Source of the DNA: Camelus ferus
Lineage: Eukaryota
Direction: 5' to 3'
Assembly: GCF_009834535.1 (NCBI RefSeq)
Contig: NC_045696.1
Location: 2,420,001-2,484,000 of the forward strand
Length of the DNA: 64,000 nt
The position numbers and the translations under genes were made by a program. Shown here piece after piece: positions 1,433 through 56,938 of this stretch (positions within the stretch are counted from its first letter, which is position 1; every line of letters starts with the position of its first letter). The notes beneath the pieces are model-generated. The model did not search any database. It was not told the origin of the DNA and saw nothing but the letters and a program-made list of their open reading frames with translations.

Positions 1433-1965
1433 TTTGAACTGTGGTAAAATTTACCACAGAAACATAAATAATGAATGTAAAATTTACCATTTAAGCCATT
1501 TTTAAGTGTGGAATGCACTGGCATTAAATATACTCACAGAGTTGTGCAACCGTTAGCCCTGTGTTTCCACAGCAAGCAGAAGCTCTGTACCCGTTCATCT
1601 TCCAGCTGCCCTCCTCCCGCCCCCGGCACCCTGTGTTCCGGTCCTATGAATTTGACTTCTCAAGTACCTCATAGAAGTGGAATCAAATATTTGTCCTTCT
1701 CTGACTGGCTGACTTCACTCGGCATAAAGGCTTCAAGGTTCACCCATGTTATAGCAGGTGTCAGAACTTCATTCCTCTTTATGGTGCATGAAATTCCCTC
1801 GTGTCTATGTAACACGTTTTGTTTATCCATTCATCTGAGGATGGACAAGGGTTTAAGCTTTGGCTGTCGTGAATGCCGCAGTGAACGTAGGTTGTACAGG
1901 TATCTGAGCTCCTGCTTTCCAGTCTCTTGGGTGTGTGCCTACGTGTGAAACTGCTGCACCACGTG
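1433..1965 (-). mobile_element. Old LINE-1 3' end (L1M-type 3'UTR fragment)
   Basis: Contains typical antisense L1M 3'UTR phrases: 'aaatttaccatttaagccatttttaagtg', 'gactggctgacttcactcggcataa', 'tcaaggttcacccatgttatagca', 'gtttatccattcatctg'. Subfamily not resolved. Confidence 0.8.
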
Positions 1966-2956
1966 GATCAGGGTTTTCTCTCGACATAAAATCGCATTGT
2001 CTGCAAGTAGTGATAGTTTTACTTTTTCCTTTCCAATTTGGATGCCTTTTATTTCTTTTTCCGCCTGATTGCCCTGGCTAGGACTTTCAATACTACGTTG
2101 AATAAGAGTGGTGAGAGTGGGCACCTTTGTCTTGTTGCTGATATTAAGGGAAAAGGCTTTTTCACTGCTGAGTATGGTGTTAACTCTGGGCTTGTCGTGT
2201 GTGGCCTTTATAGTGTTGAGGTGCGTTCCGTCCATGCCTACTTTGTTGAGAGGGTTTATGATAAATGGATGTGGGGTTTTGTCATGTGCTTTTTCTCCAT
2301 CTGTTGAGATGATCATGTGATTTTTATTCCTCCACTTGTCAATGTGATGTATCACATTGATTAATTTGTGGATATTGATCCACCCTTGGCATCTTCGAAT
2401 AAATCCCACTTGATCATGGGCTACGATCCTTTTAGTGTGTTGTTGAATTTGATTCGCTAATATTTTGTCGACGATTTTTGCATCTGTATCCAGGGATACT
2501 GGCATGTTACTTTCCTCTTTTTGTGATATCCTTCTCTGGTTTTAGTATCAGGGTAATACTGGCTTGCAAATGAAACGAGTTCGGGAGCAGTCCCTCCTCT
2601 TCAGTTTTTTGGAAAAGTTTGATAAAGATAGGTATCAAATTTTCTTTGAATGTTTGGTAGAATTCACCAGTGAAGCCATTTATTGGGTCCTGGACTACTG
2701 TTTGTTGGGAGGTTTTTTTAATTGCTGTTCAGTATCCTTACTAGTAATCAGTCTGTTCAAATTGTCTATTTCCTCATGATTCTGTCTTGGAAGATCGTGT
2801 TTCTAGGAATTTATCCATTTCTTCTAATTTGGGCTAATTTTAATGCCCAATTTCTTGGCCTGTGATTGTTCGTAATAGTTTCTTACAATTGGTTGCATTT
2901 CTTTGGTGTCAGTTGTGATTTCTCCGCTTTCATTTCTGGATTTATTTATTTGAGCC

Positions 2957-26300: not shown

Positions 26301-27327
26301 GCCATCAAGGTTCTCCTGGCCACATGGAGTGTTTACCCTTGAGGGACGGCACGGTTCACTCGGGCTGGTCAGAGAGGCCCGGGGAGCTCACTGTCATCCT
26401 CCTTCCCTGTCCTTGCACAGCACGTCCTCCTGACAGTCTGGCAGCCCCAGCCAGCATCCCGGTCAGCATCTCAGGCCTGAGGGCCGTGCTCCAGGGGCAG
26501 TTGGTGCAGGACGGTCTGCCCAGCGGGAGCACCGCCAGCGGATGCTGTGTCTGCGGGCATGGCAGGACCTGCACAGGCGGGCTCCAGGCTGGTGTTGGGG
26601 TTGGGGGGCTGCTGCGCCCAGACCCACTGGCAGGAACTGGGGAAGGAGGATCCTCAGGGCCCCTGCTGGGTGTGGGGGGGACAGCACAATGGGGGTGGGA
26701 GGGAGGGGTCATTACCCAGAAGCGCCCAGGGGGACTCTGGCCAGGAGAATTGATGCTCCATGGTTATCCATCCATCATTCAGCCAATGTTGATAGAGCTG
26801 GGGGTCCTGGATGTCAGTATGGGGACCCCTTTCTGTCCTGGGGGGCCTGTCTGACGGGAACTCAGGGGTCCAGGCTGGGTCCCAGAGCTGAGTGGGCAGG
26901 ACGCTGCTGAAGGTGGCAGGACACCCAGAATTCGGGCACTGCTGGAGTGCTGGCCCTCCTGTATGTCCCCCACCCCTGCACCCTCTGGTCACCCTGTGAA
27001 GTCAGCATTATGCTAGGACAGTGGCATTGTGGGGAGCGTGAAGGGAGTCCCCCCTAGTCTGGCCCTGCTGCCCCCATCTTCCCACTGCACACACACTGGC
27101 TGCCTGACCCTCAGAGTGAGAAGGACCTGTGTTTAGGAAGCCCCAACCGGGTGAGAAGGGTTTCAGGCTGGCCCTGCCCCCCAGGGTTGCCAGCCTGGCC
27201 TGACAGTGGCTCAGAGACACTGAGACAACACTGAGCATCTGTCATCCAGGGTTAGGGGCATGACTGAGCCCCATCTGTTTGTTGCCCCGCTCCCCACAGC
27301 CACTTGCCCGAGGGGGGACTGTGACTC

Positions 27328-27913
27328 TGATGCTGGAAAAACGGTGTGGGGCATGAGGAGGGCTGAGTCCCAGGTCTCGGCTGAGCCCCTGGGACGCGCC
27401 CCGCCGAGTGTGGGTCCTTGGCTTCGTGCAGGAAAGAGTTCAAGTGCGAGCCGCTGTTGAGTGAAGGCAGATTTATTTAGAGAGATGCACACTGCATAGA
27501 GTGTAAGGCCAGAGAAAGGCCAGGCAAGAGCTGTGGGAATTGGGTGCTCAGGTTACAGTGAAAGTAGGCACACACACACACCACAGAGTGCGGGCCGCCT
27601 CCAGAGGGGAGGGAGCGAGAGAGGGCCGCCAGGTGCGCTGCTGGTTTTTATGGGCTGGGTAGCTTCACAGGCCTCCAGGTGGGACCATTCCAACTGCCCG
27701 GGGGAGGGGGCTGGGGCTCCCAGGGCCTGGGCCCCCGCCCACTCTGACCTTCTGTGGTCGGCCTTGGGGCTGTCCTGGCGCCCGTGGGCATGCTATTTAT
27801 CATGCTGATACGCTACATACACTGAGCATATGATGAAGCTCAAGGTGGGCTAGAAGTCAGACCTCCTGCCGTCTTAATCCTCCCTGTGCCCTGCCCCCTT
27901 CCAGCCTGTCTCA
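27328..27913 (-). mobile_element. ERV1-like solo LTR
   Basis: Minus-strand termini TGAGACAGGCTGG...GCATCA, with the same 5' 13-mer as the LTR at 11721. Minus-strand AATAAA ('atttattt' ~27472). Imperfect 4-bp flanking duplication actc/actg. Confidence 0.7.
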
Positions 27914-28864: not shown

Positions 28865-29679
28865 TGTAAGGGGTTAATGCCTCATGGGAAAAGCTGTGTT
28901 TCCTGTGCCCCACTGTCCCCGCTGCTGACCCCCCGGCTGTTTCCCCACACGAGCTGCGCTCCAGTGCCCTGCAGACACCAGCCGGCTGTCCCACAAGTCG
29001 ATTCAAGGCTGACATCAATTACCGGAGTCAGCACAGGGCCCAGAAGTGAGGGGCTCAGTCCCACAGGCTACCCCTGCTCCAGAGCCGGCCATGGTCCCCA
29101 GTGCACCCCCACTTCTGTCTGACTTGGCTTCAGATCAGAGGGTCCTGTCACTCCCCCCCCATGAAAATTTGCCAGGATGGCTTACAGTGCCTCCCTTACT
29201 ATTGCCAATTAACCACAAAGACAACACAGGAACATCCCACGACGCGGGGAGCGATGCCTGGGCCGGGCGTTGGGGAGGGGGCCCGGCTTCCAGCCCCTCC
29301 ACGTGTTCACCACCTGCAAGCTCTCTGAACCCTGTCCTTCTGGGGTTTTTGGAAGTTCCATTACATGGTCATGATTGATTAAGTCATTGGCCGTTGGTGA
29401 CTGAGCTTTCCCTGGCCCCTCTGTCCTCCTCAGAGGAGCGGGTGGGGAGGTGGGGCGGAAAGTTCCAGCCTTCGTGGCAAGATTGGCTCCCCGGCACCTG
29501 GCCCCCATCCAGTGGTCATATCGGGGCTTTCCGAAAATGATGTTATGAACGTCAACCCAGGTGTGGCTGAATGTGATTTGCCAGGAAGAACCTCTGAGGA
29601 AGTCCCAAGGGGCCTGAGCGCTCCGTGCGGGGACAGGGTGAAGGCCGATTACATGCCCCTGTTGTGAATCAGTGCCACA
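28865..29679 (-). mobile_element. MER21-like solo LTR
   Basis: TG...CA termini plus characteristic phrases 'ggctcagtcccaca', 'gctctctgaaccctgtcc', 'catgattgattaagtcattggcc', 'gaaagttccagcc'. Confidence 0.8.
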
Positions 29680-29990
29680 GGGGCCTTCGGAACTTTCCCT
29701 TAGGGACGTGGACATTCGGCCACACTCCTGGTGGTTAGGAGATCGGGCTGGACAGGCTCCAGAGAGGCTTGGGGGGTTAACGTTTAACAACCGGCCCTCC
29801 AGGGGCACCCGGGCAGCTGCATCTGCTAGTTTACTCAGTGTAAACACCACAACAGACGTCGCTGAAGGCCGGGTCTGGAAGAGCTGGGTTGTGCCTGCAC
29901 CTGTGCGGGAACGTAGGGGCCGGGAGGAGGCTGGGCAGCCAGCCTACCGACAGCGGGGTCTGGGCCCCTTTGGTGAGGGCGCCGTTTAGC

Positions 29991-30049
29991 CTTCCGAGCA
30001 GGGGACAGGCACAACGGCGCGGAGCCTGGGGTCTCAGCCGGGGACAGAA
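29991..30049 (+). repeat. Inverted repeat, outer left arm (diverged)
   Basis: Reverse complement aligns to 31859-31918 with 7 mismatches and 1 indel over 60 columns (manual). Weaker similarity continues to ~29946. Confidence 0.9.
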
Positions 30050-30070
30050 ACATGGAGGTCACTTGTGGTT

Positions 30071-30292
30071 GGACGGTGGAGTCTGAAGCCCAAGTCCTGG
30101 GGAGCGAGAGGCCCTGGGGCAGTGTTGACAGGAAGGCCAGTGGGTGAGCCTCGGGCTTCCCAGCACCCGGGGCCAGTCCTGCAGGGCGGTGCCCGGAGGG
30201 CGGCCAGCGAGGGGCCGGGTGGGTGCCCTGGAGCAGGGGAGGGGGCGCATCCGGGAGGGCCGCCCGCTGTGCCCAGCTGAGGCCTGGCCCCA
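30071..30292 (+). repeat. Inverted repeat, inner left arm (222 bp)
   Basis: Manual alignment to the reverse complement of 31272-31493 gives 219/222 identical with no gaps. Confidence 0.98.
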
Positions 30293-30759
30293 TGCACCTC
30301 CTTGGAGAGATAAGAACCCTCCTGTTTGAAGAGGGGCCGTACTCAGGCTGCGGTGTAGATGGCTCTGCTGGGATGGGGAGGAAACGACACAGGCCGCAGG
30401 GGCTGGGGAGCGCCCCGGGGGGATGAAGCAGGGGTCCCAAGGGGGTGAGGGTGGGCCAGGGTGGGTGAGGGCGGCTGCCGCCACAGGGAGGGGGGCGGGT
30501 GGAGGGCAGAGCCTGGGGCTGCGGGAGCGGGGCTGAGAAGGTGACCTCGCCCTCCCGCCGCTGCTCCTGCTTCCTGTCCTGCCCGGGGAGGTAGCTGAGG
30601 GCCCGGGCAGCCTCACGGGCATCTGAGCGAGGCAGGCCTGGTGCTGCTGTCCCGGGAATTCTGGGAGGGGCCCCAGGCTGGCCCGCCGAGGGGTAGGGGA
30701 GAGGGGAGCGTGGAGGGAGGGGCAGCTCCTCTCACCCCCTCGTGACCGCCACCTACAAC

Positions 30760-30800
30760 CGCGATTGTCTCCATTTTAGAGATGAGAAAACTGAGGCCCT
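30760..30800. mobile_element. MIR core fragment inside the inverted-repeat spacer
   Basis: 'ctccattttagagatgagaaaactgaggc'. Confidence 0.7.
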
Positions 30801-31271
30801 GCCCGGACCCCCACCACCTAGGCCTGGCTCTCCCTCCCTGGCAAATGTGTCTCTGGCTCAGGGAGGGGGCAGGGCTGACAGAGCAGGGCCAGAGGGGGCT
30901 GCAGGAGACCCTGGCCCCCAGCGCCACTGTCAGGTCTTCCTCTGGGCGGAACGTGCAGGCCTTGGTCCCTGTTCCTCTGTGACTCCCCTTGGATGTCCCC
31001 AACCAAAACAGATGAAGCTGTTTCATCGCATTTGGTTGGAGTGTGTCAGTGGGGAGGTGGCAGAGGGCAGGTCCCGCCCAGTCCCTGGGCCCCCAGCACG
31101 TGGCTGTGCTCCAACCGCTGGGGGAGGGGCTGTCACAGGGCGGCGTGTCCTGGGTGGCCTTGGGGGAGGTGGGCAGCATGTGATGTGATGCAGTTTGCAG
31201 GGCAGGAGCGCTGGGTGACCTGGGGCAGGGGTCCTGGTCTGCGACAGTATGGCCGTCCAGGTTAAAGGGTG

Positions 31272-31493
31272 TGGGGCCAGGCCTCAGCTGGGCACAGCGG
31301 GCGGCCCTCCCGGATGCGCCCCCTCCCCTGCTCCAGGGCACCCACCCGGCCCGTCGCTGGCCGCCCTCCGGGCACCGCCCTGCAGGACTGGCCCCGGGTG
31401 CCGGGAAGCCCGAGGCTCACCCACTGGCCTTCCTGTCAACACTGCCCCAGGGCCTCTCGCTCCCCAGGACTTGGGCTTCAGACTCCACGGTCC
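31272..31493 (-). repeat. Inverted repeat, inner right arm (222 bp)
   Basis: Reverse complement of 30071-30292. The ORF track shows the same peptides on opposite strands (30065+ vs 31284-; 30059- vs 31269+). Confidence 0.98.
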
Positions 31494-31858
31494 GTCCGAA
31501 GTGGGAGGAAGGGGCAGGGCACAACCACTGAAGGAAGGACACAGCCGTTGAGGACAGGACACACTGGTTAGAACCAAGAAGGCAGAAGACGCGCCCTCCA
31601 GTAGACCTTGGGCCCGCTGGTGCACCCACAGGCGCCAGGACAGTTCCCTGGCTGACCACAAAAGGTCAAAAAGTGGGAGGGGGCATGTCCTGGAAACCCT
31701 CGCCCCTTCCCCAAAGTGGGTGGTTAGCACTTTCGCACGGGAAATCACGCAGCCCCTAGAACCTAACCATCCCGCATGGTGGTCGCTCTCACGCTCCCCC
31801 TCTCGCCTCCAGGCAAGAACCTATTCTCCCCCAACACATCCACCAATGGCTCCCACGG

Positions 31859-31918
31859 TTCTGTCCCCGGCCGAGACCCCGGGCTCTGCGGTCATCGTGC
31901 CTGTGCCCTGCTCGGAAG
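31859..31918 (-). repeat. Inverted repeat, outer right arm (diverged)
   Basis: ttctgtccccggccgagaccccgggctctgcggtcatcgtgcctgtgccctgctcggaag versus reverse-complemented left arm ttctgtccccggctgagaccccaggctccgcg-ccgttgtgcctgtcccctgctcggaag. Confidence 0.9.
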
Positions 31919-32089
31919 TCTGGAGAGTGTCCACACCCGCAAGCCCCGACGCCGCTCTCGGTTCCCCCTCCCCGCTCCGCCCGCTGCTCCCCGCCTCCCT
32001 CTTCTCTCCCTCGTCCTTCAAGCCCCCGACCCCTGACCCCTGCGTGCAGCCTGGCGCCCAGAGCAGTCACAACTACCATTTGTGTTTAG

Positions 32090-32600
32090 ATAGACTTAAT
32101 TTTAGGTTTACAGGAGAGCTGTGAAGACAGGGCAGGGGGTTCCCGTCTGCCCCGCACCCCGTCTGCCCCGTGACTACCTGTTACTAACCCCGCACGTTAC
32201 TGTGGTCCATTTGTGACAGGAATGAGCCAATACTGACCCACCGATCAGGATGGGGTTTTTTGTTTGTTTGTTTTTAGCTTTTTCCTACTTTCTGGCACCG
32301 CAAGTGCTCCAGGCTCATCTCTGATATCTCCTGCCGCTTTCCCCGGAGCCCCAGGGCCTTGTCCCGGGACGCGTTTAAGAAACTGACGTCTGGCACTGGG
32401 TGTGCTCACTGCTGGGGGGCCGTTGCGTCCAGGCCCTCGCAGCTCCTGCGCACAGAGGTGCTGCCCCGTGTGCAGCGGACACAGGCCTGTGAACGTTTCT
32501 GTGTAACTGGTTGTATCTCAATAAGCCAAATATGGGTCTCTGACCTAATCTAGACCCCATGGGTCATTCCCGCCTCCTCCTCTTGCTTACCTGGAAAGTC
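32090..32600 (-). mobile_element. Old L1 3'UTR fragments (L1MC/MD-like)
   Basis: 'ttttaggtttacagg...catttgtgacaggaatgagccaatactga' and 'tactttctggcacc...ctccaggctcatct...ggtgtgctcactgct'. Confidence 0.65.
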
Positions 32601-43822: not shown

Positions 43823-44392
43823 TGGTTGGCACGGGAAGGTGCCCCTGGCTCCTGGAGGCACGGCTCAGGGCGGAGCTGGCAGCCCCGGGCCCCGCCTCCA
43901 CAATCAGGGCTGCGGCCCTCGGAACCCCAAACACGTACTCTCTGAGCCGAGTTAGGTCATCTGCACCCAGCTCCCCCACCCCTCCCTGTCCACCTCAGAG
44001 ATTTTCTCAGAAGGGTCTCGGTAGCGGGGTACAGAGCCTCATGCAGACCCCCACCTCCTCCCCCCGCTGCTCACCTCCCCTGTCCTGGTGCCCAGGACAG
44101 GAGAACAGGGGTACCCAGACCTGCTGTGGGTCTCAGAGGCAGAGAGGATGGGGTGCGGGCACAGAAAAGGGGTTGAAAGAGAGGGAGAGGGGCCCAGGGC
44201 TCCCTCAGAACCCTAGGGCCTTAATCCAGGCCGCGCCTGGCCCTACCCCCAGCACGGGCCCCTCCCCGCATCACCAGGCCCCTCCCACTGGGGCCCCTGA
44301 TGCCAGGGCCTTGCCACCCAGCTCTTCCCCGCACCACTTTACTGGGGCCCCAGGGAGCACCCGCCAGCTCCCAGGTCTAATGGGGAAACTGA

Positions 44393-56204: not shown

Positions 56205-56650
56205 CTCCTTTTTAAATTAATAGACAACATTTAAAAGCAGTTTCCTATACAGAGAAACTGACAAAGTGCAGACTCCCACCCCCACCCCTACTGTTTACAC
56301 CCAGCTCCCCCACCCCTCCCCCACCATTTACATCTGGCGTGGGCACTGCCCTCATTATACGTGATGGCTCAGTATTGACACGTTGCTGTTAACCACAGCC
56401 CACACTTTACATCAGGGTTCGCTCTTTGGGGTACATGCTCTATGCACTGTGACAAATGTATGATGCCATGTGTGCCCCATTATATAACCATGCAGAACAG
56501 TTTTTCAGCCCTAAAATTTCCCTGGACCCCACCTATTTGTCCCTCCCCCAAGCCCTGGCAAGCACTGACCTTTTTACTGTCTTGCCCTTTCCGACCGTCA
56601 CGGAGTTGAAATCACCGACGTGTAGCTGGCCTGCTACATTTTACATGACA
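56205..56650 (-). mobile_element. Old L1 3'UTR fragment (L1MB/MC-like)
   Basis: 'tttacatcagggttcgctctttgg...gacaaatgtatga...ccctggcaagcactgacctttttactgtc'. Confidence 0.75.
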
Positions 56651-56871
56651 TAGTGCGGGGGAAAGTCTCGAGCCGGCCGAGGAGGCCACCCCTCGAGGCT
56701 CCTTCATTGTTTTCTTTCTTGTGCACGTGAATCTGTAGACTGCCCGGATTTTCCTCAGGTGGTGGGGCTGGTGTGTGGGATGGTTTACTTCTCAGGATTT
56801 GGGGAGAGTCAGGGCTGGAGAGGCCTGTCTCCTTCTCGGACAGATAAGGAAAGGGTGCAGGCGCCAGCTAG

Positions 56872-56938
56872 CAGCTTCTCCAGGACCCACAGCTTCTCCA
56901 GGACCCGCAGCTTCTCCAGCACCCGCAGCTTCTCCAGG
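56872..56938 (+). repeat. 18-bp minisatellite CAGCTTCTCCAG(G/C)ACCC(G/A), ~3.7 copies
   Basis: Units start at 56872, 56890, 56908 and 56926. Confidence 0.95.

What the first reader, a model, noticed from the sequence alone, without database searches (positions are those of the whole stretch)
29946..31963. The inverted repeat is layered: diverged outer arms around a homogenised core, implying arm-to-arm gene conversion
Seen: sequence just outside the left arm (29991-30049) matches 31859-31918 in inverted orientation at ~87% (7 mismatches, 1 indel). Fainter similarity extends to ~29946/~31963 (reverse-complemented gcccagaccccgctgtcggt vs gccccgacgccgctctcggt). On the right, ~350 bp of unrelated sequence (~31494-31840) separates the outer arm from the inner arm, whereas on the left they are nearly contiguous. 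Inference: one old inverted duplication was split by an indel. The part beyond the indel then diverged while the inner 222 bp stayed ~99% identical through concerted evolution, as described for larger mammalian palindromes. The alternative is two duplications of different age.
Basis: partly seen in the sequence, partly recalled or inferred. Interest (0 to 1): 0.7.

Follow-up and report, generated by a model that had tools for sequence, protein, structure and literature searches.

The report
LTR-split inverted repeat, homogenised core
A 350-base mirror-image duplication in non-coding mammalian (likely camel) DNA was split by a high-copy repeat insertion: the part beyond the insertion is only 78% identical between the two copies while the inner 222 bases are 98.6% identical, likely because the two arms later overwrote each other by gene conversion, a clean case of a known process with no function shown.

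Summary
The layering is real. Inner arms 30071-30292 / 31272-31493 match at 219 of 222 bases. Outer arms 29946-30071 / 31837-31962 match at 96 of 123. The 'unrelated' gap is a 340-bp high-copy LTR-like element (31497-31836). It is flanked by an imperfect 4-bp target-site duplication, and the left arm holds the single empty site; 340 + 4 equals the 344-bp shift between inner and outer register. So inner and outer parts were one duplication before the insertion. The element differs from most other copies at 10% or more of sites and the outer arms by about 11% each, so both date to tens of millions of years. The inner arms differ by 1.4% and were therefore likely homogenised much later by arm-to-arm conversion that stops about 8 bp short of the element. 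Two other camel-like DNA runs collapse both arms into one 217-bp contig, so this is no assembly artefact. Repeated conversion versus one recent sweep, spacer flipping, GC bias and any function remain untested: no orthologue from a distant species could be had. It is a known process, and similar cases were noted elsewhere in this genome.

The parts
29946..30067 (+). outer left arm, diverged (78% to outer right arm)
30068..30071 (-). single (empty) copy of the insertion target site in the left arm
   Evidence: maps onto both 31493-31496 (inner register) and 31837-31840 (outer register)
30071..30292 (+). inner left arm; homogenised core 30076-30292; GC 74.8%
30293..31271 (.). 979-bp unique spacer, no internal inverted homology above shuffles
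31272..31488 (-). inner right arm, homogenised core (2 differences in 217)
   Evidence: one 217-bp contig with exactly these ends in 2 of 2 DNA runs laid
31489..31496 (-). unconverted edge next to the element (3 differences in 8), including the 5-prime copy of the target site at 31493-31496
   Evidence: post hoc Fisher p = 3e-4 against the core
31497..31836 (+). 340-bp decayed, internally shortened solo LTR-like element (ERV1-type label is recalled, from no call)
   Evidence: over 1000 contigs laid per DNA run, depth in the thousands over 31482-31733; 70 of 86 identity to another copy at 27701-27788
31837..31840 (+). 3-prime copy of the 4-bp target-site duplication (3 of 4 alike)
31837..31962 (-). 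outer right arm, diverged

Best explanation
One inverted duplication of about 347 bp around a 979-bp spacer was split by a 340-bp LTR-like insertion in its right arm; the 125 bp beyond the insertion differ by 22% and the inner 217-222 bp by 1-1.4%, likely because non-allelic gene conversion between the two nearby arms went on (or recurred) up to the insertion, which would act as a barrier to it. Shown: layering, insertion, target-site duplication, empty site, presence in other animals. Inferred: the age (tens of millions of years), conversion as the homogenising process, and the insertion as the cause of the outer arms' escape. The likeliest route is repair of a break in one arm using the other, 1 kb away, as template, with tracts of about arm length. 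No function is needed.
For: The outer register is shifted by exactly 344 bp (43 of 54 matches at that shift, at most 20 of 54 at the 12 other shifts tried) = 340-bp element + 4-bp duplication. Other copies' loose 5-prime ends place the family start within about 2 bp of 31497. Two clocks agree: the element differs from the majority of laid copies at 18 or more of 180 places (10%, a lower bound) and from the 7 long pieces listed for run X10 by 17% on average; the outer arms differ by 22% (JC 0.26), about 11% each. The last 8 bp before the element keep outer-like divergence, 3 of 8 vs 2 of 217, as expected if old sequence was overwritten up to near a barrier. Without conversion 0 of 300 simulated pairs stay at 3 or fewer differences. 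Inner GC 74.8% vs spacer 67.2% (p = 0.03) and flanks 57% fits GC-biased conversion. PMC3924837 (passages) states that conversion lasts until a TE insertion or other large indel disrupts pairing.
Against: No cross-species tree and no polarised substitutions. The GC excess over the outer arms is not significant (p = 0.07) and one spacer tile reaches 73.4%. The target-site duplication is only 3 of 4 alike, and two neighbouring placements also score 3 of 4. The clock comparison is rough (outer 95% interval 15-30%; element 6-15%, biased low). A steady state at 1.4% needs about 150 times the mutation rate (1.8e-6), some 7 times the human average of 2.5e-7 (10.1101/135152); at the average rate only 17 of 300 simulated pairs look like this, so one lucky recent sweep is as good a reading as constant conversion.
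Confidence: 0.85

Rival explanations
1. Two independent duplications: an old 125-bp one and a recent 222-bp one that happened to land beside the element.
For: Inner divergence of 1.4% by itself equals 1-5 million years of drift (PMC8605555 rate). No outgroup has shown the inner right arm to be old.
Against: The new copy would have to start within a few bases of the old register and land at the element's 5-prime edge while leaving the 5-prime target-site copy and 8 diverged bases in place. A copy so guided is homology-directed overwriting, that is conversion.
Confidence: 0.04
2. The arms are homogenised chiefly through repeated flipping of the 979-bp spacer (crossover between arms), with ordinary allelic exchange between the two orientations moving sequence from arm to arm. 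This is a variant of the best explanation, not exclusive of it.
For: Most human inversions between highly identical inverted repeats recur (PMC6748972, PMC3961182; passages); yeast flip/flop region (PMC9731477, abstract). The geometry allows it.
Against: The arms are a third of the shortest repeat (654 bp) among the 24 human NAHR inversions of PMC6748972. No strand-changing joint was listed, but only the right half was laid and contigs break at the arm, so this is no test.
Confidence: 0.15
3. The inner arms are kept alike by selection, as a 222-bp double-stranded RNA stem or as twin regulatory elements.
For: If both arms were in one transcript they would pair very stably (duplex -577.5 kcal/mol, trivial for such arms). 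Six RNA runs hold part of the region; one has a contig over 31680-32050 and one over 30924-31119.
Against: Pairing needs no 99% identity and tolerates G-U; selection for a stem would not explain identity ending 8 bp from a TE edge better than conversion does. No Rfam match; no Pfam match above cut-off except an RT relic at 1942-2541 among 243 frames scanned.
Confidence: 0.05
4. Assembly artefact: reads of one arm overwrote the other during assembly or polishing.
For: Near-identical repeats are prone to this.
Against: In 2 of 2 DNA runs laid, from two studies and two organism labels, the arm is one 217-bp contig ending at 31272 and 31488, the points where the two arms part, with about twice the depth of long contigs listed for the same run (31.4 vs 14-16; 20 vs 9.6; depth is a weak measure).
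Confidence: 0.01

Closest known systems
Concerted evolution of duplicates by non-allelic gene conversion, ended locally by a TE insertion (Fawcett and Innan 2011, PMC3924837, passages; Harpak et al., 10.1101/135152, passages)
   Same: Nearby duplicates, a near-identical patch about one tract long (mean 250 bp in Harpak), higher GC in the patch, divergence beyond a TE insertion.
   Different: Non-genic, only 347 bp long; the barrier is visible to the base, with target-site duplication and empty site, and gives its own date.
Primate X palindromes with arm-to-arm conversion (Jackson et al., PMC8327919 and PMC8981503, passages)
   Same: Inverted arms around a spacer, near identity, GC higher in arms than in flanks.
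   Different: Those are defined as over 8 kb and over 99% identical, X-linked, mostly with genes; divergence 4.7e-4 and conversion 4.5e-5 per base per generation. Here 222 bp, 1.4e-2, likely autosomal, no gene found.
Recurrent inversions between inverted repeats (PMC6748972, PMC3961182, passages; FLNA-EMD repeats of Caceres et al. 2007, not seen, as reported in PMC8327919)
   Same: Over 90% identical inverted repeats around a short unique segment.
   Different: Repeats here are shorter than the 654 bp to 24.2 kb of that set; a second orientation has not been seen.

Membership tests
Duplicates under non-allelic gene conversion | Paralogues older than their divergence implies | tested here: met
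   Collinear with outer arms and split by an insertion 10% or more diverged; inner 1.4%
Duplicates under non-allelic gene conversion | Sharp patch of identity bounded by a large indel or TE | tested here: met
   2 of 217 vs 3 of 8 at the edge vs 27 of 123 beyond
Duplicates under non-allelic gene conversion | Arms group by species, not by position | not testable with these tools
   No genome held; the metagenome scan gave 7 of 7 chance 20-mer hits
Duplicates under non-allelic gene conversion | Variants shared or swapped between arms within the species | tested here: inconclusive
   Run X10's contig has the left-arm letter at 31353, X3's the right-arm letter; collapse of a bubble gives the same picture
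Duplicates under non-allelic gene conversion | AT-to-GC bias of fixed changes | tested here: inconclusive
   Only GC content could be compared: 74.8% vs spacer 67.2% (p = 0.03), outer arms 66.9% (p = 0.07); no outgroup to polarise
Large mammalian palindromes (PMC8327919) | Arms over 8 kb | tested here: not met
   222 bp
Large mammalian palindromes (PMC8327919) | Arm identity over 99% | tested here: inconclusive
   98.6% over 222 bp, 99.1% over the 217-bp core
Large mammalian palindromes (PMC8327919) | Protein-coding genes in arms or spacer | tested here: not met
   0 Pfam hits in 119 frames of 88 aa or more over 21.4-42.3 kb; short exons could be missed
Recurrent NAHR inversions | Flanking inverted repeats over 90% identical | tested here: met
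Recurrent NAHR inversions | Both orientations occur | not testable with these tools
   Only short-read contigs were served; they break at the arm
Solo LTR of an endogenous retrovirus | High-copy interspersed repeat with a common 5-prime end | tested here: met
   1191 and 1043 contigs laid; 90 and 79 loose ends before 31511 that agree back to about 31495-31497
Solo LTR of an endogenous retrovirus | Short target-site duplication | tested here: met
   4 bp, 3 of 4 alike, in exact register with the empty site; weak taken alone
Solo LTR of an endogenous retrovirus | Canonical terminal dinucleotides and a named family | tested here: inconclusive
   3-prime end reads AACA (LTR-type, recalled); the 5-prime dinucleotide is not canonical; no repeat library (Dfam, Repbase) on hand, so the ERV1 label is recalled

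The most novel reading that the evidence does not exclude
A 217-bp autosomal mini-palindrome, a third the length of the shortest repeat among the 24 human NAHR inversions of PMC6748972, has been re-homogenised in every camelid lineage for over 20 million years without erosion and still flips its 1-kb spacer, showing that very short arms can sustain concerted evolution and recurrent inversion, with a TE insertion as a dated, base-precise conversion barrier.
Probability: 0.15. Interest if true: 0.55.

Novelty: new member of a known kind. Interest (0 to 1): 0.3.

Why it matters
It is a tidy natural experiment: a dated insertion splits one duplicate into a converted and an unconverted part, so the reach of conversion towards a large heterology (about 8 bp here) and the lifetime of conversion on very short arms can be read directly once alpaca and llama orthologues are aligned. 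It also warns that short near-identical inverted repeats need not be young. It suggests no new mechanism or function, and earlier unchecked notes list several similar layered repeats in this genome.

Tried and rejected
Whole-genome search: none held. Orthologue hunt in metagenome contigs with one 20-mer from the arm: 7 of 7 loci were chance matches with nothing beyond the 20-mer. Further faint homology outward (1 kb and 3 kb) and within the spacer: at shuffle level (best 19 of 300 for the lenient spacer test). Arms as two copies of a common transposon: the inner arm drew one full-length contig and depth 20-57, against thousands on the element; the outer right arm had no cover in the two DNA runs, which proves nothing either way. 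RNA: 0 of 2 RNA runs laid (of 6 RNA holders) covered the inner right arm, so editing or hairpin use could not be looked at; a hole is no evidence. Only the right half (30810-32050) was laid on runs, so left junctions and spacer orientation stay open. Coding or structured-RNA role: no Rfam hit in 64 kb; Pfam on 243 frames gave one hit above cut-off (RT relic) and three below. Other target-site readings needing an extra 4-bp indel were dropped in favour of the one in exact register. (bacterial promoter scan on 11 bases) has no bearing. Look-ups of earlier findings near, by sequence and by words returned nothing.

Full report
Setting. The window is GC-rich mammalian DNA. No Rfam family matches. 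Of 243 stop-to-stop frames scanned against Pfam (119 of 88 aa or more over 21.4-42.3 kb; 124 of 118 aa or more elsewhere), one passed a curated cut-off, a reverse-transcriptase relic at 1942-2541; short exons could be missed. Earlier AI notes, unchecked, call the genome camel and place PDE9A 449 kb and CLIC6 6.9 Mb beyond the window's end. From recalled human gene order this would be the autosomal 21q22.3-like region, perhaps the gene-poor stretch near CRYAA and SIK1; that is inference.

Observation. Inner arms 30071-30292 and 31272-31493 match at 219 of 222 bases without gaps, around a 979-bp spacer. The differences are 30075/31489, 30162/31402 and 30211/31353. Outer arms 29946-30071 and 31837-31962 match at 96 of 123 columns with 6 gap columns; JC distance 0.26. 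The outer match was reached by 0 of 300 shuffles in a 1 kb by 1 kb space; inner against outer rates give p = 1.5e-10. Nothing above shuffle level lies further out or inside the spacer.

The gap is a transposon insertion. Of 24 runs listed, 14 hold 87-91% of the words of 29500-32400 and 6 RNA runs hold 6-50%. I laid 2 DNA and 2 RNA runs, all contigs, on the right half, 30810-32050. The two DNA runs put 1191 and 1043 contigs on the stretch, with depth in the thousands over 31482-31733 and 20-57 on the arm. So the gap is a high-copy repeat. Loose ends of 90 and 79 other copies agree back to about 31495-31497, which marks the family's 5-prime end. Part of the element also matches another copy in the window (27701-27788, 70 of 86; 0 of 300 shuffles). 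Its look (3-prime end AACA, decayed TATA-like motif) is that of a shortened solo ERV1-type LTR; this label is recalled, as no repeat library was on hand.

The two layers were one duplication. The outer arms sit in a register shifted by exactly 344 bp from the inner one: 43 of 54 matches at that shift, at most 20 of 54 at the 12 other shifts tried. An element of 340 bp (31497-31836) plus a 4-bp target-site duplication (31493-31496 and 31837-31840, 3 of 4 alike) gives 344, and the left arm holds that site once, at 30068-30071. Two neighbouring placements also score 3 of 4, so the exact ends are uncertain by a base or two, but no further indel is needed. The left arm is thus the uninterrupted form, and the element entered an already duplicated 347-bp arm.

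Age. For run X10, one other letter holds over half of the laid depth at 18 of 180 places in 31511-31690 (10%). I counted from 28 places among the 40 rows shown, leaving out the arm row and rows with little or no X10 depth; 26 rows were not shown and only pieces 80% alike are laid, so this is a lower bound. The 7 long pieces listed differ from this copy by 14-20%. The outer arms differ by 22%, about 11% each. The two clocks agree within wide intervals. In years: 22-26 million by hand with the camel rate used in PMC8605555 (2.5e-8 per generation, 5 years; passages), 44-87 million with recalled generic rates of 1.5-2.5e-9. The inner arms' 1.4% equals 1.4 or 2.7-4.6 million years on the same scales.

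Homogenisation. In 2 of 2 DNA runs (two studies, organism labels A and B) the arm is a single 217-bp contig ending at 31272 and 31488, where the arms part, at about twice the depth of long contigs listed for the run. The near-identity is therefore real and not peculiar to this assembly, and the difference at 31489 is present in both. The 8 bases before the element differ at 3 sites, the core at 2 of 217 (post hoc p = 3e-4): conversion seems to stop just short of the insertion. X10's contig carries the left-arm letter at 31353 and X3's the right-arm letter; this could be conversion polymorphism or collapse by the assembler. Inner GC is 74.8%, in the top 0.3% of 222-bp windows here, above the spacer (67.2%, p = 0.03) but not clearly above the outer arms (66.9%, p = 0.07).

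How often. A steady state at 1.4% needs a homogenising rate of about 150 times mutation, 1.8e-6 per base per generation. That lies between the human average for duplicates, 2.5e-7 with 250-bp tracts (10.1101/135152, passages), and primate X palindromes, 4.5e-5 (PMC8981503, passages). In a simple simulation that ignores slowing with divergence, pairs with 3 or fewer differences were 0, 17, 56, 172 and 269 of 300 at 0, 20, 40, 150 and 400 times mutation. As the finding was picked for its identity, one recent whole-arm sweep at an average rate cannot be told from steady conversion without outgroups.

Rivals. Two independent duplications would need the new copy to land in the old register at the element's edge and to spare the target-site copy; unlikely. 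Selection for an RNA stem has no support here: one RNA run has a contig over 31680-32050, another over 30924-31119, at low flat depth that DNA carry-over could give. How the duplication first arose (template switch or staggered-break inversion) cannot be told.

Known kind. PMC3924837 (passages) says that conversion between duplicates runs until substitutions, a TE insertion or another large indel disrupt pairing; this locus is that textbook picture in miniature. It works like the palindromes of PMC8327919 (passages) but fails their size and gene criteria. Its repeats are shorter than the 654 bp to 24.2 kb of human NAHR inversions (PMC6748972, passages; PMC3961182, passages; PMC9731477, abstract and outline). 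Caceres et al. 2007 was not seen. Nine library searches were on the process and on camelid repeats, not on this locus, and listed no paper about it; that is no proof that none exists. No supplements were opened. Earlier unchecked notes list several layered inverted repeats in the same genome, so the pattern is not rare.

Verdict. Observation confirmed, interpretation supported and sharpened; new member of a known kind; interest 0.3.

Noticed in passing
window 27300-27900 (minus strand): A second LTR-like element of a related family; matches the insert at 70 of 86 (27701-27788) and more loosely over 27604-27788.
   Followed up: partly
window 30236-30259 (+) and 31305-31328 (-); spacer 30431-30455, 30486-30506, 31073-31094: G-quadruplex-type motifs inside both inner arms and in the spacer; 60 such motifs in the whole window, so not rare. 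Could favour breaks that start conversion; untested.
   Followed up: partly
window 31500-32500: CpG-richer patch (observed/expected 0.6-0.7) over the element and outer right arm; one RNA run has a 375-bp contig from 31680 past 32050 with no differences, depth 4.8. DNA carry-over is not excluded.
   Followed up: partly
window 1942-2541 (-): Reverse-transcriptase relic (Pfam RVT_1, E 2.4e-8) in AT-rich DNA, likely an old L1.
   Followed up: no
window 43964-43986 and 56298-56320: Perfect 23-bp direct repeat 12 kb apart.
   Followed up: no
window 30999-31039: Small imperfect hairpin (18-nt arms, 83%, 5-nt loop) in the spacer.
   Followed up: no
window 56871-56938: 18-bp tandem repeat, 3.8 copies, 92% matches.
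   Followed up: no
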